A DNA stretch of 64,000 nt, taken from the NCBI GenBank assembly GCA_041742355.1, contig JBGSIV010000214.1, forward strand, positions 8,409-72,408. Direction: 5' to 3'. The position numbers were made by a program, and so were the translations under genes. Under the pieces are notes generated by a model. That model saw nothing but the letters and a program-made list of their open reading frames with translations. It made no database searches and was not told where the DNA came from. Source of the stretch: Candidatus Zixiibacteriota bacterium. GTDB lineage: Bacteria; Zixibacteria; MSB-5A5; GN15; FEB-12. This document shows positions 13,274-49,075 of this stretch, in pieces (position 1 is the first letter of the stretch; the number at the start of each line of letters is the position of its first letter).

Positions 13274-16015
13274 ATGAAAACACTCGGGTTCCTGCTCTCG
13301 GTACTGGCGATGCTGTCACTCCTCCCCACTCCATCTTCGGGCGCGACCGAACACTACCTTCGCTTGACGGTCGAGTCCCGGGACCAAGTTTCCTTTCTCT
13401 CCAAAGTCATCTCGATAGACAACGTGCAGGACGGCCTCGTGCTCGCGTACGCCACCGATGACCAGCTTGCCGAACTTCAGCGCCTGGGCTACACGTTCGA
13501 AGAACTCCCCCACCCCGGCAGCCTGATTCGCCCCGAGATGAGCCGCAGCGCTCTCGATGTCTCCGCGTGGGATACGTATCCCACCTACGACGCGTATGTC
13601 GCCATGATGTACCAGTTCGAGGCGACTTATCCCGACCTCTGCCAGATTGTCAATATCGGCTCGACCGGCGAGGGGCGCGCCCTGCTCTTTGCCCGCATCT
13701 CGGACAACGTCGGTGTCGAGGAAGACGAACCAGAGGTCCTCTACACCTCGACCATGCACGGGGACGAAGCCACCGGTTATGTCCTCATGCTCCGCCTGAT
13801 CGACTCCCTCCTCTCCACGTACGGCACCAATGCCGAGGTGACCGGGATGATCGACAGCCTCGATATCTGGATCAACCCGAATCACAACCCCGATGGCACC
13901 TACGCGGGCGGCAACAACACTGTCAGCGGGGCGACGCGCGGCAACGGCGCACTGGTCGACATCAACCGCAATTTCCCCGATCCCGATAACGGCCCGCACC
14001 CCGACGGCAACGCCTGGCAGCCCGAGACGATCGCCATGATGAATTTCGCCGAGACTCGCACGATCGTTCTCTCGGCCAATTTCCACGGCGGCACCGAGGT
14101 CGTCAACTACCCGTGGGATACCTGGTCGCGCCGGCACCCCGATGATGCCTGGTTCCAGACGGTCAGCCACCAGTATGCGGATTCGTGCCAGAAGTATGGC
14201 GCCGCGGGGTACATGGACGGCTACAGCGACGGCATTACCAACGGTTACGACTGGTACGAGGTGCAGGGGGGCCGCCAGGACTTCATGACTTACTGGTACA
14301 GTTCGCGCGAGGTCACGATCGAGATCTCCAACACGAAGCTCATCCCGGCCTCCCAACTTCCCGCCCACTGGGTCTACAACCGCGTCTCGCTTTTTGACTG
14401 GCTGCGCCAGGCGCTTACCGGTGTGCGCGGCATAGTCACCGACGCCGCCACGAGCCTTCCGCTGCACGCGATGATCTCGGTCATCGGCCACGATTTAGCG
14501 ATCGACAGCTCGTATGTCTTCACCGATTCCGTTGTCGGTAACTACCACCGGATGATCGCGGCCGGGACATGTGATCTCGTCTACTCGGCCCCCGGCTATG
14601 TCCCGGATACGGTGTTTGACATTGTGGTCACGGCCAACGCCCCTGCCGTCGTCCTCGATGTTCAGCTTCAGCCGTTGCCGTCGGTTCCGGTGCTCCTGCT
14701 TGAGAGCCATTCGATCGCCGGGGTCGACCCGGGCGAGTCGGTCAACGCGCTGGTTACGCTGCGCAACGAAGGCCCGGTGGCCGCCACGAAGGTTTCCGGC
14801 ATCCTGCGCACCGGTGATCCGTATATCATCGTTACCGACAGCACCGCGTCCTTCCCCACGATCGCCGCGCTCGGCGGGACCAGTGTCTCGGTCAGCCCCT
14901 TTGTCTTCGACGTCTCCCCGGCCTGTCCGCAAGAACACACCGTTACCTTTGTTCTCCACCTTACGGCCGATGGCGGCTATGACGATTCCCTGCTCTTCTC
15001 GGTGATTGTCGGACAGACTGTCGAGGATTTCGAATCCGGAGGTCTTGCGGCCTTTCCGTGGCAACAGGCAGGGTCTGCCTGGTGGTCGGTGACCGGGGGC
15101 AGTGTGTACGAAGGTTCTTTCGCCGCTCGATCCGGGGTCATCGGCCATTCTCAGTCCACCAGTCTCACGGTCACGCTGGACGATCTTCTCCAGGGGCCGA
15201 TTTCCTTCTACCGCCGCGTTTCTTCCGAAGCCGGCTGGGATTTCCTTGAGTTCTATCTCGACGGCGTCCGTCGCGCGCAGTGGTCCGGCGAACTCCCGTG
15301 GCAGCAGGTTTCATTCGAGGTCACCCCCGGAACCCACACGTTCCGCTGGACCTATGTCAAAGATGGCTCCGCTATAGGCGGTTCCGATGCCGCCTGGATC
15401 GACTTCATCACTTTCCCGCCGGCCAATCAGGATCTCGATGGCGATGGCGTGCCGGCTGACATTGACAATTGCCCTGCGCTGAGCAACCCCGACCAAGCGG
15501 ATGCCGATCTTGACGGCCGCGGTGATGTTTGTGACAACTGCCCCAGTATCAGCAATACCGACCAGGCCGATGTTGATTCGGATACGGTCGGCGATCTCTG
15601 CGACAACTGCCCCGCCGTCAGCAATACCAATCAGGCTGACGCTGATTCGGATACGATCGGTGATCCGTGTGATAACTGCCCGGCAGTGAGTAATACGGCT
15701 CAGGCGGACGTTGATTCCGACACGGTCGGCGATTCCTGCGACAATTGCCCCGAGATCAGCAATTCCGATCAGGCGGATGCTGACCTTGATGGCATAGGCG
15801 ATGTTTGCGACTACGTCTGCGGCGATGTCAACGACGACGCGAGCGTGATTGTCAGCGATCTGACGTATATGGTCAACTACCTCTTCAAGGCGGGGCCGGC
15901 GCCGACCAATCCCGCCGCCGCCAATATCGACGGTCAGGGTACGGTCAATGTCGGCGATGTCACTTATCTTGTGAATTACCTCTTCAAGGGTGGCCCGCCG
16001 CCGGTGTGCGGGTAG
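13274..16015 (+). CDS. Secreted M14 zinc carboxypeptidase with thrombospondin type-3 repeats and a C-terminal dockerin-like domain
   Basis: Signal peptide; HGDE, NPDG, NRNF, FHGG, EVTIEIS; five DNCP..N.DQAD.D repeats; CGDVN...[18 protein letters not shown] / [17 protein letters not shown] duplicated motif. Confidence 0.88.
15431..15811 (+). repeat. Intragenic 69-bp (23-aa) tandem repeat encoding TSP3 Ca-binding units
   Basis: GAYAAYTGC (DNC) at 15464, 15533, 15602, 15671, 15740. Confidence 0.9.
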
Positions 16016-16020
16016 GGAAG

Positions 16021-17360
16021 GGGATTGCGTCGTTCCCCTCGGGATTGGGTTCGTTTGCGCAATTGAGGGTGGCCGTCGATGTCGGGTTTCTCGGCGCTGA
16101 AGCGCCTCGGAACCCCGACCTACTCCCTCGACCCGGCCTACACCCGAGATAAATTGAGTTCGTTTGCGCATGTTTCGGAGCGCTGCCGTATCTCTTGTCA
16201 AGCACCCAAAGCGGTGCTTGACCTACCGCTGACGTAATTGGGTTCGCTTGTTCACCTGGCCGGTTTTCATTCTTTCTGTGTCAGGCTCCAAGGAGCCTGA
16301 CCTACTTCCAAGGACAAAGTTCGTTTGCGACCGCTCGGGGGTGACACAAGGCCACCCCCTACGCGGGCGGAGGGGGCAGTCGGTGTGCTCGCAGGGCGTG
16401 TCGGTCGCCGGGTGGACGTGTCGACAGATTGGGTTCGTTTGCGCATGTTTCTCCTGTGCGTTCATAGCTCTCCGATGTCTTTCCATACTTGCCTCCCAGT
16501 CGGGTTTCTCGGGGCTTGCGCCCCTCGGAACACCGACCTACGCCTCAAAAACACCGACCTACCGTTGGGTTCGTTGGCGCAGATTCCGTGTTCCTGGTTC
16601 TCCCTTTGTCAGGCTCTGAACTACGTCGATTAACGGCCGGTATCCTCAAGATCAGGACCACGGGGGGCCTGACAGACGAGAGGAGTACTCGTATCGGGCG
16701 GCCCGCAGCAGAGCTGCGGGTTACCAGGTCAAGCAGGAATGTCATTCCAAGCTGCCCGCAGCAGAGCTGCGGGTTACCTACTGTCAGGCTCCAAGGAGCC
16801 TGACCTACGGGCCGGAGAGTGGGTTCGTTTGGTAGTCCCGGCATACGGTAGAGTCAGGCTTGACTGGGCCCCGGCCTCCGCCGGGGTGACAGAGGAGAAG
16901 CCGGGGTGACAGAGGAGAAGCCGGGGTGACAGGTATGCATTCTCCTCCTTCGTCGGGCTGACAGCCAATGGACCTGGCCGCACGATTACTCTGCCTTCTG
17001 CCTTGCGGACGCTCTGTTCTATACATGCTGTGGACCGATCCTCTATCTCTGTTGGTTTGCCGGTGATTTTGCGGGGCATTCGCGGCCGATGTGGACATCG
17101 GCCGCGCACTTCGTCGCACACATTTTGCCGGTCGTTCGCGGCAGATGAGGACATCTGCCGCGCACTTCAGCCGGTGATTTTGCGGGGCAATAGCGGCAGA
17201 TGTGGACATCGGCCGCGCACTTCGTCGCACACATTTTGCCGGTCATTCGCGGCAGATATGGACATCTGCCGTGCACTTCCGAAGAGTCACACGCTCTTCC
17301 TCGCTCCGCTCGGGGTCGCGCAAGACCCCGCGGAACGGGGGTTGGGCTTCGTTGAGCGCA
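16021..17360 (-). repeat. Mosaic REP-like repeat island 1
   Basis: Tagged hairpins at 16081-16123, 16197-16226, 16280-16305, 16338-16362, 16499-16541, 16702-16724, 16755-16777, 16783-16808, 16869-16891, 17081-17276 (x4), 17279-17336; ATTGGGTTCGTTTG-like motif at 16044, 16153, 16237, 16315, 16428, 16564, 16818, 17341. Confidence 0.9.
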
Positions 17361-17448
17361 TCGCTTCTGGATCTGGCTTCCTGTCCGCGTGTACGCTATA
17401 TTGGCCGATGGATCGGAGTATAAGCCGCATGATTGGAGTTTTGGCCAG

Positions 17449-18390
17449 GTGACCGGATCGACTCCACAGCCATTTGAACCGCGCCTCGACCGGTGCGAGT
17501 GCTGTCCGCGCGGCTGCAAAGCCGACCGCGCCTCCGGCGTCCTCGGCTGGTGCAAAAGCCCCGCCGGACTCTCGATCGGCTCGGTCTGCGCCCACCGAGG
17601 CGAGGAGCCGGTAATATCGGGCACGCACGGTATCTGCAACATCTTTTTCACCCGCTGCAACATGCAGTGTGTCTACTGCCAGAACTACGACATCTCCCGC
17701 ACGAAGGAGCCGATCCTCGAGACGGAGATGGCTTTCGATGATCTCATACGCCGCATCGAACGCCACCTCGACGCGGGCTGCAAATCGGTCGGGTTCGTTT
17801 CCCCGAGCCACTACTATCCCCAGATGCTCGGGGTGATTGACTCGCTCACCGCCCGCGGGCGTAAACCGGTGTTCGTCTACAACACCAACGGCTACGATCG
17901 GGTGGAGGCGATTCGGAGGCTCGAGAATGTTATCGATGTCTACCTGCCCGATTTCAAGTACAGGGATGACGCGCTCGCCCGCAGTTTTTCCCATGCTCCG
18001 GGCTACCCGGAAATCGCCGCCGCCGCGATCGGCGAGACGTTCCGACAGGTCGGCCCCGACATCGTGCTCGATGAGGACGGTCTCATCACCCGCGGGCTTA
18101 TCATTCGCCACCTCGTGCTTCCCGGCCAGGTGCAGAACAGTATCGATGTCCTGCAGTATATCGCCACCAACTACTCCCCCGATTGCCACATCTCGCTCAT
18201 GTCGCAGTACTGGCCCACCCCGGCGGTCGAGAACCACCCCACGCTCGGCCGGCGGGTTACGGAGGAGGAGTACGACCTCGTGCTGGAGGCGATGGAGGAT
18301 CTCGGTTTCAGCCGCGGCTGGGTGCAGGAACTCGACTCCAGCGACCATTACCGTCCCGACTTCATGCGCGATCATCCGTTCGAACCATAA
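17449..18390 (+). CDS. Radical SAM protein, PflX/PFL-activating-enzyme-like
   Basis: CECCPRGCKADR, HRGEEPVISG, CNMQCVYCQN (CxxxCxxC), VYNTNGYD, YLPDFKY, IIRHLVLPG, SLMSQYWP; start uncertain (GTG 17449). Confidence 0.85.
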   Translation: MTGSTPQPFEPRLDRCECCPRGCKADRASGVLGWCKSPAGLSIGSVCAHRGEEPVISGTHGICNIFFTRCNMQCVYCQNYDISRTKEPILETEMAFDDLIRRIERHLDAGCKSVGFVSPSHYYPQMLGVIDSLTARGRKPVFVYNTNGYDRVEAIRRLENVIDVYLPDFKYRDDALARSFSHAPGYPEIAAAAIGETFRQVGPDIVLDEDGLITRGLIIRHLVLPGQVQNSIDVLQYIATNYSPDCHISLMSQYWPTPAVENHPTLGRRVTEEEYDLVLEAMEDLGFSRGWVQELDSSDHYRPDFMRDHPFEP

Positions 18391-18485
18391 GCCCTGTCCC
18401 GCTGTTACACGGAAAACACGACGCCGGGCCGTCTTAGGCCGGCAAGGACTATCAACCGTCAGGCAGACGTGAAAGGGCTATCATC

Positions 18486-18962
18486 ATGGCCGACGACATC
18501 AAGAAAGTGCTCCGCAAATTCGAATACGGCGTGTACGTGGTCACCATGGGCAAGGGGGAAGACGGCAACGCCTTCACCGCGAGCTGGGTCACGCAGGTCA
18601 GTTCGGAACCCCCGATGGTCGCGATCGCCGTGCACAAGAAGCGCCAGTCGATCCCGATGCTCAAGGAGCACGGCGCGTTTGTCCTCAACCTGATCGGCGA
18701 GGGGCAGGACGGCGTGGCGAAATCGTTCTATGGCCCGGCCGAATCGGGTTATGACAAGCTCAAGGGCCGCACAGTTCGCGAATCCCCCGCGACCGGTACC
18801 CCGGTCCTAAATGGGATCCTCGGTTATCTCGACTGCGCGATTGTCACGACGGTCGATGCCGGCAACCACGTGCTGTTTATCGGCGAAGTGAAAGCGGCCG
18901 GTCTTGACACCGACTCCGACATCCTGACCGGGACGAACTCGGGGTTACGGTACACAGGGTAG
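18486..18962 (+). CDS. Flavin reductase-like protein
   Basis: YGVYVVT, TASWVTQVSSEPP, GNHVLFIGEV. Confidence 0.9.
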   Translation: MADDIKKVLRKFEYGVYVVTMGKGEDGNAFTASWVTQVSSEPPMVAIAVHKKRQSIPMLKEHGAFVLNLIGEGQDGVAKSFYGPAESGYDKLKGRTVRESPATGTPVLNGILGYLDCAIVTTVDAGNHVLFIGEVKAAGLDTDSDILTGTNSGLRYTG

Positions 18963-19110
18963 CGGCATGACAGGAAGCCTGGTGCGATGTTTCTCGGATG
19001 CTGTCAGGTGGGGACACCTGACAGCACTGACGATTTCCATCTCTGGCTCCATCTCTGGCTCCACCTCGCGCTCCAACTCCTGCATCAGCATGCCTGATTC
19101 GGCCTGTCCG

Positions 19111-19161
19111 TACACTCTGTTCTATACTTACCGGGACGTCGGGGCAATCTCCATCAGTTCG
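19111..19161. repeat. Isolated copy of the island 'P' module
   Basis: TACACTCTGTTCTATACTTAC...GGGGCAATCTCCATCAGTTCG, nearly identical to 36201-36252; core also at 17009-17024. Confidence 0.8.
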
Positions 19162-19450
19162 TCAGTGAAACTGGACAGAAATGGCGGCGGTTTTCCAAGT
19201 CAGCTTTGACTCCGTCAAGGCAATGACCGCTATGAGGATAGGGGTGATGGAGCGGGTTGAAAATGGCTCGATTCAGGGCATTTGTCAGTGGTCGAGTTTA
19301 TTGAAGAAGGTCGGAGATTTGCGGGTGGCCGGGTGCCTGTTATTCGTGCCGCGACCACGGTCGGTTTGATGCGGGCCGGCCCCGGCAGAAGAGGAGCCGA
19401 GCGTGGAGCTGGGGCAGGAGAGTGGACCTGTTGCGGTAGTAGGTTCTCTG

Positions 19451-19966
19451 TTAGTCGAGTCTCACTTCGATTTCATCGAGCACACGCCAGCCCGCCCCAT
19501 CGGGAACGATGCAGGTGAAGTAGACTTCATCCGCCTTCACTGGCGCAAACGACATTTCATCGAGCACGAGTTTCTCGCTCACCCGCATCGTCTCGACCAC
19601 AGAGAACCCGGTAGCGACATCCTCTCCCGGCAGAAACCGCAGCAGCATCCGCCGCTCATCCATCTTGCGCGGCGCCCCGGCCTCGTCCTTCGTGGTGACC
19701 TGAATGAAGCTGAAATCGATATAGAATTCGTACTCGGTTTCGTACGACGGCAGATCGAAGGTCTTGCGCTGCGCTTCCGGCAGCGAGGAGCGGATCGGCT
19801 CGATCACGAGCAGGCTGTAGCAGGTATCGCACAGCCGTTCCCAGTCATCGAAGCCGGTCAGGTTTTCATCGAGGATGCGCGCCGCCTGCATGGAGGGGAT
19901 CGACGCGTTGAGCGCCATGAGAAAGTTGCGCACGAGTTGGTCGACAGTTGTGGTCCAGGTGCTCAT
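19451..19966 (-). CDS. Hypothetical protein
   Basis: 171-aa ORF with protein-like composition, 4 nt downstream of the preceding minus-strand gene. Confidence 0.7.
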   Translation of the reverse strand: MSTWTTTVDQLVRNFLMALNASIPSMQAARILDENLTGFDDWERLCDTCYSLLVIEPIRSSLPEAQRKTFDLPSYETEYEFYIDFSFIQVTTKDEAGAPRKMDERRMLLRFLPGEDVATGFSVVETMRVSEKLVLDEMSFAPVKADEVYFTCIVPDGAGWRVLDEIEVRLD

Positions 19967-19970
19967 AGGG

Positions 19971-20501
19971 TCATTTCACCCGCCAGAGGACGAACCGAGC
20001 GCGCGTCTCGCGCACTTTGGTGTCGGGATCGGCCAGGGTCAGGCGGAAGTCCAGCGTGTCGGGGTGCGGAAAATCGACGGTCACCTGGTATCCTTTGTTC
20101 TTGAAGGTGCGGTCGGCCACGAGGCGACCGTCGCGGATCTCTCCCCGGTACTTGGCGTGTTTGCCCCAGTTGTCCCATATTTCCCAGGTAATGGAATCAG
20201 TCTGAGGGTCGTGCCGCAGGAGTCCGGAATCGGCGTAGTTGAGGAAGTACTTGGTGCCGGTCATGGAGGTTTTGATGAGGTCGCGGCCGGCGTCGTACAC
20301 GAACTCGCCCTGTCCTTCCAGTTCGACCTCGACATCCGTTACCGGCATGAGGAACATTCCTTCCCCTTCCCAGGATCCGACCAGGCTCTTCAGGTCAAAC
20401 TTCTTCTGTCCCCCTTTGGCCAGCGGCGATCCCGCCCCGATTCCGACTGCCAACAGCAGGGCTGCTGCTGCCGCCATGAGTATAGCTCTTTGTTTGTTCA
20501 T
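19971..20501 (-). CDS. Exported hypothetical protein, possibly a beta-barrel (lipocalin-like/DUF1579-like)
   Basis: Signal peptide; LKSLVGSWEGEG (GxW) motif; TATATT and GAGGA upstream. Confidence 0.7.
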   Translation of the reverse strand: MNKQRAILMAAAAALLLAVGIGAGSPLAKGGQKKFDLKSLVGSWEGEGMFLMPVTDVEVELEGQGEFVYDAGRDLIKTSMTGTKYFLNYADSGLLRHDPQTDSITWEIWDNWGKHAKYRGEIRDGRLVADRTFKNKGYQVTVDFPHPDTLDFRLTLADPDTKVRETRARFVLWRVK

Positions 20502-20560
20502 GCGTCCTCAATATAGGCGGGCGGCCGCCCGAAGCAACTTACAAAACTCACCAAAGGCAC

Positions 20561-21068
20561 CGGCCGCGCACACCCGCAGGGTCACACGCTCTCCCTCGCT
20601 TTGCTCGGGGTCGCGCAAGACCCTGCGGAACGGGGTACCTCCGGGGCGGAGACAAGCCCCGCCCCTACGCGGGGGGTGGGAATGGGTTCGTTGGCGCGTA
20701 TGCAGGTTTTCTTTCCCAGTCGGGTTTCTCGGGGCTCACGCCCCTCGGAACACCGACCTACTTGCAGGATCACCGACCTACGCCTCAGGAACGCCGATGG
20801 CGGCCTCAGGGACACCGAGCTACTCGGATCGCCGGCGTAGATGGGGTTGCTTTCTCGATTTCCAAGTCAGGCTCCAAGGAGCCTGACCTACTTCCTGTCA
20901 CCTGTGTGACCGGGTTGATCGGATACCTATCTGACCGGTTCCGTCCGAATCTCTTCCCACCGCAAGCGGTGGGGCACCCAAGAGAGATTGCTTCGTCGCT
21001 CAGCTCCTCGCAATGACTGCCAGCAATCGTGCACGGGTTTTTTCAACCGGCCGCAAGCGGTGGGGCAC
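20561..21068 (-). repeat. Mosaic REP-like repeat island 2
   Basis: Half F 20561-20571, E 20574-20631, D 20643-20668, N motif 20681, B 20719-20761, C 20866-20891, GTGC hairpin 20956-20977 and 21051-21068, ...CTCGCAATGAC half-repeat 20984-21017. Confidence 0.9.
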
Positions 21069-21172
21069 CCGGCGGTTCATACACCGGCGGTCGTCGAATT
21101 CATGGCGCACACGAATTGATTTGTCTAGTGGTACACCGAACGGGCGAGGCCGTTCAATTGATTGTGCCGGAT

Positions 21173-35710: not shown

Positions 35711-36473
35711 ACGGGTTGGTTTCCGCAGGGTCACATCCGCCTCCGGCGGACAAGACCCTGCGGAACGGGGAACTTCCAGGGCGGAGACAAGCCCCGCCCC
35801 TACGCGGGCGCGGAGTGACGCATCGACGAATTGGGTTCGTTTGCGCGGTTTTCCGGTTTCCGTGTGAGTCTTGCCGTCAGGCCGCAAGCGGCCTGACCTA
35901 CATCTAACCTATGCATTGGGTTCGTTTGGTAATCCCGGCATACGGTAGACTCGGCGTGACTGGGGCCCGGCCTCCGCCGGGCTGACAGGAAACAAGCCAG
36001 GGGTGACAGAAGAGGATTCCAAGTCGCCTCCGCGGGAATGACAGGAAAGAAGTCGGGGTGACTCGTAGTGGGCTTTGGCCGCACATTTGCCCTGCCTCTT
36101 CTCTTCTCGACACGTTGCCCCTCCTCTTGCCGGAACCTGGCCTCTCTTGTTGCCGAAATGCGGCATCTCCTGTTGCCGTCACGGTAACTCCCATTCTCGC
36201 TACACTCTATCCTATACTTACTGTGGACCATGGGGCAATCTCCATCAGTTCGCTGTCGATTTTGCGGGGGGGATTCGCGGCCGATGTGGACATCGGCCGC
36301 GCACGGCATGTGGGTATCAGCCGCGCACAGAGCGGGCCGCGCGGTGTTCCGCAGGGTCACACCCTCCCCCTCGCTTCGCTCGGGGTCGGGCAAGACCCTG
36401 CGGAACGAAGAAATCAGCCGTGTCCACCCGCAGGGTCACACGCTCGCTACGCGAGCGCAAGACCCTGCGGAAC
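35711..36473 (-). repeat. Mosaic REP-like repeat island 3
   Basis: E 35721-35766, D 35779-35803, N 35830, C-type 35876-35901, N 35915, G 35966-36062, P 36201-36252, F 36276-36304, E 36346-36406 and 36428-36473. Confidence 0.9.
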
Positions 36474-48571: not shown

Positions 48572-49075
48572 ATGTCAATACTCCTTCGGTACTTCTCGCC
48601 CGGACAGATGTATTTCATAACGACGGTCACGGAGCACCGCCGCCCAATCCTCGTGTCGAACAGCTCCCTGCTTGCTGCCGCCGTGGGTCGCGTGAAACGC
48701 GACTTACCGTTCGAGGCTATTGCGTGGTCAGTGTTACCTGACCACTTTCATCTTGTCATGAACCCCGGCACCAATGACCCTGCCATGATCATAAAGCGGA
48801 TCAAACAGATCTTTGGATATAAGTATCGACACCTGGTGGGGGCTTATCGTGGCCGCGTATGGCAGAGGCGCTACTGGGACCACATCATCCGAGATGAGGC
48901 CGATCTGAACAGGCACATAGACTACATCCATTATAATCCCGTCAAGCACGGGCTGGTCGCCACACCCATTGAATGGCCACTTTCCTCGTTCGTGCGGTAT
49001 CAGGCGCAGGGGGTTTATCCATCAGATTGGGGAGTGCGGAAGGAGGTACTAATTGACGGTGATTTTGGCGAATGA
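48572..49075 (+). mobile_element. REP-associated tyrosine transposase (RAYT, HUH/Y1)
   Basis: YFITTVT, LPDHFHLV (HUH), VWQRRYWDHIIRDE, IDYIHYNPVKHGLV, WPLSSF; flanked by inverted GTAG REPs. Confidence 0.93.

What the first reader, a model, noticed from the sequence alone, without database searches (positions are those of the whole stretch)
16044..16835. Array in which a fixed non-palindromic motif alternates with different GTAG hairpins
Seen: motif N (ATTGGGTTCGTTTGCGCA and variants) at 16044, 16153, 16237, 16315, 16428, 16564 and 16818. Between successive copies sits a hairpin ending in CTAC (GTAG tag on the minus strand), and the hairpin family changes from unit to unit: B GTCGGGTTTCTCGG..CCCGAC, C' GTCAAGCACC..GGTGCTTGAC, C GTCAGGCTCC..GGAGCCTGAC, D GGGGTG..CACCCC, then B again. 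N often starts 9-13 nt after the CTAC (16226, 16305, 16808, 20668, 35901). Known: BIMEs and REPINs are made of inverted pairs of one REP family. Here several families lie head-to-tail with a constant partner motif. Inference: an undescribed cassette-like system in which N is a recombination or protein-binding site and REP units accumulate, possibly through RAYT/HUH activity.
Basis: partly seen in the sequence, partly recalled or inferred. Interest (0 to 1): 0.8.

Follow-up and report, generated by a model that had tools for sequence, protein, structure and literature searches.

The report
Packaging-hijack cassettes of Zixibacteria
The repeat array is a gene-less member of a cassette family that shares its upstream sequence (likely a promoter) with the bacterium's inherited virus-like capsid genes and elsewhere carries a gene predicted to be a small DNA-packaging protein, so these cassettes likely steer the host's particles to package their own DNA.

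Summary
The array is real and genome-wide. Motif N is the commonest 12-mer (117 exact copies), co-oriented in 113 of 113 neighbouring pairs, intergenic, and the junction at which hairpin modules are exchanged. It is not a RAYT site. N marks the 3' end of an unnamed gene family (40,716 clusters; no Pfam, NCBIfam or solved relative). The family's N-terminal 49 residues match phage genes lying just before large terminases, and it is predicted to self-assemble side by side. Two intact genes here run straight into N arrays. A 65-bp head precedes both genes and 27 of 43 arrays (here at 17078). The same head precedes the portal and protease-like genes of a single-copy capsid cluster found in 40 of 41 genomes searched; the cassette gene is in only 24 of 41. 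Best reading (0.5): selfish cassettes that would give a GTA-like particle a sequence-specific small terminase and packaging sites, with REPs hitchhiking. Binding, packaging and the route of spread are untested. The scan earlier noted the Zixibacteria capsid cluster, and similar cassettes with other small-terminase families, on other DNA; I found no note of this family.

The parts
13274..16015 (+). Host gene at the N end: M14 carboxypeptidase with TSP3 and dockerin domains (not part of the cassette)
16018..16039 (+). Terminator-like hairpin of the host gene; the first N follows 5 nt later
   Evidence: read; the strict terminator scan did not call it
16045..16056 (-). N copy 1 (3' end of the cassette; cassette sense is the minus strand)
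16081..16123 (-). GTAG-tagged hairpin, family B
   Evidence: read; family counts
16154..16165 (-). N copy 2
16197..16226 (-). GTAG-tagged hairpin, family C'
16238..16249 (-). N copy 3
16280..16305 (-). GTAG-tagged hairpin, family C
16315..16330 (-). Degenerate N copy
   Evidence: not found at 3 mismatches
16337..16362 (-). GTAG-tagged hairpin, family D
16429..16440 (-). N copy 5
16499..16541 (-). Second family-B hairpin
16565..16576 (-). N copy 6
16608..16808 (-). Compound unit: hairpins P, Q, Q and a second C
16819..16830 (-). N copy 7
16840..16931 (-). Module M.L with tandem partial repeats; M occurs only beside N (16 of 16 copies)
17014..17078 (-). Cassette head U (likely promoter or operator), shared with both intact cassette genes and with the portal and protease-like genes of the capsid cluster
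17082..17354 (-). Further J/K and O hairpins, a partial head and an N-like copy at 17343: probably a second, decayed cassette in tandem
17389..18390 (+). Host gene at the head end: radical SAM protein (not part of the cassette)
19117..19180 (-). Another head U with no N within 1.1 kb
35830..36273 (-). Second cassette in the window: head at 36273, two N copies (35830, 35915), modules C2 and M.L

Best explanation
The array is a gene-less copy of a dispersed cassette (head U, then a gene predicted to encode a ring-forming small terminase, then repeats of motif N) that likely parasitises the phylum's inherited GTA-like capsid system: the head, shared with the capsid genes, would switch the cassette on together with them, and the protein would bind N and draw the host's large terminase there, so that cassette DNA is packaged and transferred preferentially. 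Gene-less copies keep head and N and would use the protein in trans. REP-type hairpins from at least 12 families have been taken into the space between N copies and are reshuffled at N; they likely gain transfer by sitting at packaging sites. SHOWN: the anatomy; linkage of N to the gene's 3' end; sharing of the head with the capsid genes; conservation of the cluster; patchiness of the cassette; module switching at N. PREDICTED: small-terminase identity and oligomer. INFERRED, untested: promoter function of U, binding to N, contact with the large terminase, particle production, packaging bias, and how copies reach new sites.
For: (1) Both intact genes in G000 run into N arrays in sense, and one has in-frame N copies. 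(2) N-like motif near the gene's 3' end on the sense strand in 29 of 46 genome loci, 1 antisense, 1 of 136 control windows. In metagenome loci chosen only by the protein's head motif: 29 of 48 sense within 900 nt, 5 antisense within up to 1500 nt, 2 of 42 upstream. (3) Across 41 genomes: N and gene 21, N only 3, gene only 3, neither 14 (kin are not independent). (4) The 49-residue head matches viral ORFs (hhalign 99.1%) that directly precede a 600-640 aa gene in 10 of the 13 viral loci printed. 2 of 5 such genes tested hit terminase large subunit at E about 1e-13. Weak hits to five small-terminase PHROGs, best 8 of 103 members at E 3e-4. A short member's model aligns with HK97 small terminase at Z 7.5-8.0, rmsd 2.7-2.9, 82 residues. 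(5) Four copies are predicted to pack side by side: score 0.73, best control 0.00; this mark was reached by 20 of 30 solved homo-pairs and 1 of 23 single chains; runs agree in at least 64% of contacts; pLDDT at least 71. The job is unlike the two-copy calibration. (6) Head U: 50 hits in G000, 31 followed by sense N, 0 by antisense N. It precedes the portal and protease-like starts next to the genome's only large terminase match. A matrix trained only on 12 relatives' protease-gene upstream regions scores 49 of 50 G000 heads at 10 or more (0.4% of 2930 gene upstreams) and 14 of 35 cassette-gene upstreams (1 of 172 controls). (7) Cluster genes are single-copy in 40 of 41 genomes; the cassette gene is in 23-24 of 41, with up to 9 matches, and none in single-contig G014; its distances do not track the terminase's (rho 0.08, p 0.27, n=15). 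(8) Known GTA small terminases lack a DNA-binding domain (PMC6854486 Discussion; PMC11841831 passages), which leaves room for such a cheat.
Against: Homology to small terminases is firm only for the 49-residue head. The fold match is tied with unrelated helical hairpins, and the 199-aa model found no terminase. Viral loci with the same head mostly lack N (1 of 16), so the head alone does not specify N. In vitro, sequence-specific binding of pac-type small terminases is often weak or undetectable (PMC9611059 passages). The cassette head is closest to the own genome's capsid promoter in only 6 of 13 cases, three of them ties or near-ties; it is clear only in G000 (0.79, 0.85) and G039 (0.77). 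10 of 43 arrays have no detectable head, and 12 of 50 heads have no N despite room; some precede unrelated genes. No integrase, transposase or target duplication explains new insertions. Whether other phyla that carry the gene have a matching capsid cluster was not tested. No particle has been shown for this phylum in my calls.
Confidence: 0.5

Rival explanations
1. Host-serving accessory: the cassettes are the GTA-like system's own dispersed packaging start sites and specificity factor, kept because they spread packaging starts around the chromosome.
For: Shared head with the capsid genes; many sites per genome; no cassette-family gene inside the clusters, and the cluster's own 95-aa candidate has only weak small-terminase leads and none in PHROGs, so the cluster may need an outside one.
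Against: The cluster is in 34 of 34 good genomes, but gene and N are both undetected in 14 of 41, including single-contig G014. N counts range from 0 to 117 within one genus. No concordance with terminase distances.
Confidence: 0.17
2. Brake or decoy: the protein poisons or titrates terminases (of the resident particle or of invading phages), or N acts in the transcript as a protein-binding RNA word between hairpins.
For: The head would drive a transcript through N and the hairpins in sense. The N end faces a host gene's 3' end in 28 of 35 arrays with a called gene. Satellite proteins that act on terminases are known (PMC6739421, PMC11417361; search listing only).
Against: A pure inhibitor needs no gene-linked, strictly oriented site. 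No Rfam family reached a meaningful score.
Confidence: 0.13
3. REP/BIME-type mosaic: RAYT or Ssn nucleases build and move the arrays; N is only a short homology that permits shuffling, and head and gene were captured incidentally.
For: Five RAYT genes, two flanked by hairpin families also seen in arrays. Most families also occur away from N (B 46 of 78 in arrays, C' 11 of 60, C 18 of 34). Identity switches at N.
Against: In most relatives N is mostly solitary and follows the gene or its head. Head-to-tail dimers are rare among REPs and most REPs have no partner repeat (PMC3733652 passages). It does not explain the shared head or the gene linkage across habitats.
Confidence: 0.13
4. N is the imprint of a peptide repeat, or the array is an assembly artefact.
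For: 49 of 70 N-like hits in the 98 metagenome and viral loci lie inside the ORF, with one frame commonest (27 of 49). No contig spans the whole array.
Against: The other hits fall in two further frames (15, 7) or outside ORFs (21). Only 9 of 174 array copies lie in called genes. 41 of 43 unit orders are distinct. Contig pieces reproduce the junctions.
Confidence: 0.03

Closest known systems
Phage satellites that bring their own small terminase and pac site (SaPIs/PICIs; lateral transduction, PMC12829572 passages)
   Same: A small-terminase-type gene with nearby cis sites, predicted to redirect someone else's large terminase and capsid.
   Different: One gene only; no integrase, replication genes or att sites seen; many copies per genome, mostly gene-less; the presumed helper is a vertically inherited host cluster, not a temperate phage.
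Gene transfer agents (RcGTA type; PMC6854486 Discussion, PMC11841831 passages)
   Same: The partner cluster is single-copy, syntenic and near-universal in the order, with portal, large terminase and major head protein.
   Different: Known GTA small terminases lack a DNA-binding domain and have no known sites. Here a separate, patchy gene keeps a phage-type head and carries oriented repeats. The cassette is not itself a GTA.
HK97 small terminase (PDB 6z6e, 8pop; PMC11331095 passages)
   Same: Three-helix core of like shape; predicted side-by-side oligomer; basic N-terminal part.
   Different: 6-7% identity, Z tied with generic hairpins; HK97 binds one 15-bp site in cos, not tandem dispersed sites.
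GTAG- and CGTC-tagged REPs, BIMEs, REPINs (PMC3733652 passages)
   Same: The hairpins are of these types, intergenic, often near 3' ends of genes; RAYT genes are present.
   Different: Many families lie head-to-tail around a constant non-palindromic partner that belongs to another gene, under a shared head.

Membership tests
Phage small terminase (TerS) | Sequence homology to described TerS families above curated cut-offs | tested here: inconclusive
   No Pfam or NCBIfam hit; sub-threshold hits to five TerS PHROGs; 49-residue head shared with ORFs in the TerS position.
Phage small terminase (TerS) | Helical-hairpin oligomerisation core forming a ring | tested here: inconclusive
   HK97 TerS Z 7.5-8.0, rmsd 2.7-2.9, 82 aligned, tied with unrelated hairpins; side-by-side tetramer 0.73 vs control 0.00; ring closure not modelled.
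Phage small terminase (TerS) | Gene adjacent to a large terminase gene | tested here: not met
   G000's two genes are on C113 and C185, its only large terminase match on C120; no family member in the cluster regions of 13 genomes.
Phage small terminase (TerS) | Binds its packaging site and the large terminase | not tested
PICI/SaPI phage satellite | Integrase, att sites and primase/replication module | tested here: not met
   ORF lists around both G000 genes and the window array show none by inspection; those flanks were not scanned against family libraries.
PICI/SaPI phage satellite | Own TerS and pac site that use a helper's TerL and capsid | not testable with these tools
   Inferred from anatomy and the shared head only.
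Gene transfer agent (partner cluster) | Single-copy, syntenic, vertically kept head and packaging genes | tested here: met
   40 of 41 genomes, 34 of 34 good ones (one of the 40 terminase matches is a weak partial hit); conserved order and flanks in 13 genomes; portal and major head protein. No tree or dN/dS was computed.
Gene transfer agent (partner cluster) | Particles that carry host DNA and transfer it | not testable with these tools
   No culture or particle data.
REP/BIME/REPIN | Tagged short hairpins, multicopy and intergenic | tested here: met
REP/BIME/REPIN | Inverted pairs or alternating orientation of one family | tested here: not met
   Tagged families are nearly all co-oriented with N (B 46 of 46, C 17 of 18, C' 9 of 11); same-family neighbours 2 of 88 vs 11.6 shuffled.
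REP/BIME/REPIN | The repeat flanks a RAYT gene | tested here: not met
   N absent from the 5 RAYT loci; met only for some cargo hairpin families.
Rfam RNA families | Match at gathering score | tested here: not met
   window 15900-21100: two chance-level hits far below gathering.

The most novel reading that the evidence does not exclude
One of the largest unnamed bacterial protein families (over 40,000 clusters at 50% identity, reaching Acidobacteriota, Planctomycetota and Myxococcota) is a class of one-gene satellites of domesticated gene transfer agents. Each copies the host's capsid promoter, restores a sequence-specific small terminase and seeds oriented packaging sites, which REP elements of many nuclease families then colonise as second-order hitchhikers.
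Probability: 0.35. Interest if true: 0.92.

Novelty: categorically new. Interest (0 to 1): 0.78.

Why it matters
A standing puzzle is why GTAs, which package host DNA without preference and cost the producer its life, are not overrun by cheats, and what makes some of them package with bias. The review passages read (PMC11841831) ascribe randomness to loss of the small terminase's DNA-binding domain and bias to chromosome architecture. These cassettes look like the predicted cheat, and they give a protein, a 12-16 bp site and a promoter that can be tested directly. They would also give a function to a very large family of hypothetical proteins and explain a recurring low-complexity tail in their annotations. 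Each part (REP hairpins, small terminase, GTA-like cluster) has known relatives; the combination was not found in my searches.

Tried and rejected
Literature: the N motif text gave 18 listed papers, none on bacterial repeats by title. Head-peptide terms gave 0 (the HGGxSTG label is recalled). 'Zixibacteria' with 'gene transfer agent' gave 0. Solitary, orphan or dispersed small-terminase searches listed nothing on such cassettes. Subscription papers and supplements were not searched; the additional files of PMC3733652 may list some hairpin families.

Rfam: nothing. Sigma-70 and terminator scan of 15950-17450: none, so U is promoter-like by position only. Pfam, NCBIfam, PDB sequence and fold searches of the 199-aa member: no family. 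No homologue in the annotated phage collection with the G000 query.

Catalytic tyrosine: a Tyr is near-invariant in the close alignment but not in the diverse one, so a HUH- or recombinase-like role was set aside. The cluster's 95-aa gene is not detectably related to the cassette protein. Concerted evolution of head and own capsid promoter is not general. No RNA holder was listed. Chi/KOPS-like role rejected by reasoning: sites are clustered in intergenic arrays and vary from 0 to 117 among close kin; replichore bias could not be tested on 310 contigs. A viral scan with the diverse alignment and a genome search with the head alignment could not be run. Hairpin coordinates in the window are read by eye and may be off by a base or two.

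Full report
OBSERVATION. N is the most frequent 12-mer of the 4.37-Mb genome (117 exact). At up to one mismatch there are 177 sites in 64 clusters, and all 113 adjacent pairs lie on the same strand. With relaxed neighbours, 43 clusters have two or more copies. Only 9 of 174 array copies fall in genes called by my own simple gene finder, and the N end faces a host gene's 3' end in 28 of 35 arrays with a called neighbour. In three same-genus genomes the same two flanking genes are separated by roughly 60-200 bp without N, so the 1.37-kb element is lineage-specific. Contig pieces from other runs reproduce most junctions, but none spans the array. Relatives' proteins are labelled Zixibacteria; the window's genome is of the same order.

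MODULES. Each unit is N, a 20-40 nt linker and one or more hairpins from at least 12 families, both GTAG- and CGTC-type. Most families also occur away from N; two (M 16 of 16, L 19 of 23) hardly do. Among 169 sites, 247 pairs share only the downstream module and 82 only the upstream one; in both sets identity falls to background right at N. 41 of 43 unit orders are distinct. One pair of modules travels together (C2 then M, 11 vs 1.35 shuffled), and same-family neighbours are depleted (2 of 88 vs 11.6). N is therefore the junction of the mosaic. Whether a protein or plain 12-16 bp homology drives the exchange is not known. The five RAYT genes have their own hairpins and no N.

N BELONGS TO A GENE. 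In relatives N is mostly solitary, and in several it overlaps the 3' end of a 130-200 aa ORF on the other strand. G000 has two intact members, each running into an N array in sense, and one decayed start. The link holds in 29 of 46 genome loci and in 29 of 48 metagenome loci of 40-72% G+C picked only by the protein's head, with few antisense or upstream hits. N-like words occur in all three frames and outside ORFs, so the peptide-imprint refutation fails. Gene and N co-occur across 41 genomes (21/3/3/14). The family is very large (40,716 representatives at E 0.001, 23,799 at 1e-10). It has no curated family, and its nearest Atlas clusters are from Acidobacteriota, Planctomycetota and Myxococcota. 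G032 independently shows N-hairpin-N mosaics.

THE PROTEIN. It is all-helical (pLDDT 90.5 and 88.3). Its first 49 residues match viral ORFs that directly precede a terminase-sized gene in 10 of 13 viral loci printed, of 18 found. Two of five such genes tested hit the large-terminase PHROG, and one of two small ORFs tested has a sub-threshold Terminase_4 hit. The short model's best-covering low-rmsd matches include HK97 small terminase and a viral small terminase (rank 3, E 0.28), none above the noise for helical hairpins. Four copies are predicted to pack side by side (0.73 vs 0.00, with the caveats given there). I take it as a likely small-terminase derivative. In P22 the pac site lies inside the small-terminase gene (PMC9611059 passages), which is the precedent for N at the gene's end. 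Against: viral loci with this head mostly lack N (1 of 16).

THE HEAD LINKS IT TO A CAPSID SYSTEM. A 65-bp head precedes both genes and 27 of 43 arrays (6 truncated by contig ends, 10 without). Of 50 heads, 31 are followed by sense N, none by antisense N, 7 reach a contig end and 12 have none. In the window it lies at 17078-17014. Two heads precede the portal start (C282) and a protease-like gene (C120), next to the genome's only large-terminase match. 'Protease-like' is my recalled reading of position and motif; PHROGs gives unknown function. These genes are single-copy in 40 of 41 genomes at about 45-70% identity, in a conserved order with portal, major head protein and a structural gene, and with no cassette-family gene. 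A matrix built only from 12 relatives' protease-gene upstream regions recognises 49 of 50 G000 heads and 14 of 35 cassette-gene upstreams, against 0.4% and 1 of 172 in controls. It also marks the untrained G002 site and sites in five further genomes. In G000 and G039 the cassette head is nearly a copy of the genome's own capsid head sequence, but this is not general (6 of 13 rank first).

MECHANISM. A universal cluster with a patchy, multi-copy, phylogenetically discordant add-on is what a parasite of the cluster would look like. Known GTA small terminases lack a DNA-binding domain. I infer that the cassette is expressed with the capsid genes, that its protein binds the oriented N repeats and recruits the host's large terminase, and that cassette-proximal DNA is thus over-packaged. 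Gene-less copies such as this array would use the protein in trans, and REPs would accumulate where packaging starts. How copies reach new chromosomal sites is unexplained; the REP cargo and its nucleases are one candidate. Confidence 0.5; rivals are a host-serving accessory (0.17), a brake or decoy (0.13), a plain REP mosaic (0.13) and an artefact (0.03).

KNOWN SYSTEMS AND NOVELTY. It works like a satellite's TerS-pac hijack but fails PICI membership (no integrase or replication genes seen). It fails BIME/REPIN membership (co-oriented, mixed families, no RAYT beside N) and fails the gene-position test for a phage TerS. My searches found no paper on the motif, the family or a Zixibacteria GTA. 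Papers seen: passages of PMC3733652, PMC11331095, PMC9611059, PMC11841831 and PMC12829572; outline and Discussion of PMC6854486; listings only for the rest; no supplements. Earlier scan notes describe the Zixibacteria cluster, Zixibacteria REP mosaics read as ordinary and similar cassettes with SPP1- or Mu-type small terminases in other genomes. I reached the small-terminase idea, but one note there (a control sequence shared with a tamed particle gene set) preceded, and probably prompted, my look at what the head precedes. Searches by this protein, by this place and by the combined words returned nothing. These notes are leads, not support.

VERDICT. Real, not an ordinary REP cluster, and tied by several independent lines to an unnamed small-terminase-like family and to a domesticated capsid system; the packaging function itself remains a prediction. 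Interest 0.78.

Noticed in passing
L063-L080, L032-L060 (G032, G029) and L006-L012 (G012): A perfect or near-perfect DnaA-box-like 9-mer (label recalled) lies about 55 nt beyond N, after an AT-rich stretch, in most printed copies of these genomes; G000's copies were not checked for it.
   Followed up: no
window 48572-49075 (L003) and L001, L002, L004, L005: Five RAYT-type genes, each flanked by a different hairpin family; one has an internal stop.
   Followed up: partly
L297:1331-1621: A short PEP-CTERM-type gene (label recalled) sits on the opposite strand between the large terminase and the head in G000 and in 7 of 13 relatives' clusters.
   Followed up: no
L355:15882-16157 and orthologues (alignment A5): A 75-105 aa gene at the far end of the capsid cluster, found in 11 of 13 genomes, with weak small-terminase leads; unrelated to the cassette protein.
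   Followed up: partly
L356-L360: Five further genomes reached through cassette loci, three of whose records are titled Ignavibacteriaceae and two 'uncultured bacterium', carry the same portal-terminase-protease block at 53-62% terminase identity with the same head; they may be mislabelled Zixibacteria.
   Followed up: partly
G000:C111:2715 (L304): A head precedes a 115-aa gene unrelated to the cassette protein, so heads can capture other genes.
   Followed up: no
L277-L294: A group of viral contigs whose small-terminase-position gene has a cysteine-rich insert right after the shared head.
   Followed up: partly
L296:2977-3945; L102: Family members without the usual context: one directly after a PriCT-2 gene on a cyanobacterial plasmid; one in G023 with a repeated C-terminal part.
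   Followed up: no
window 20540-20900: A hairpin cluster (B, C and others) with a single two-mismatch N at 20681; no head was found beside it.
   Followed up: no
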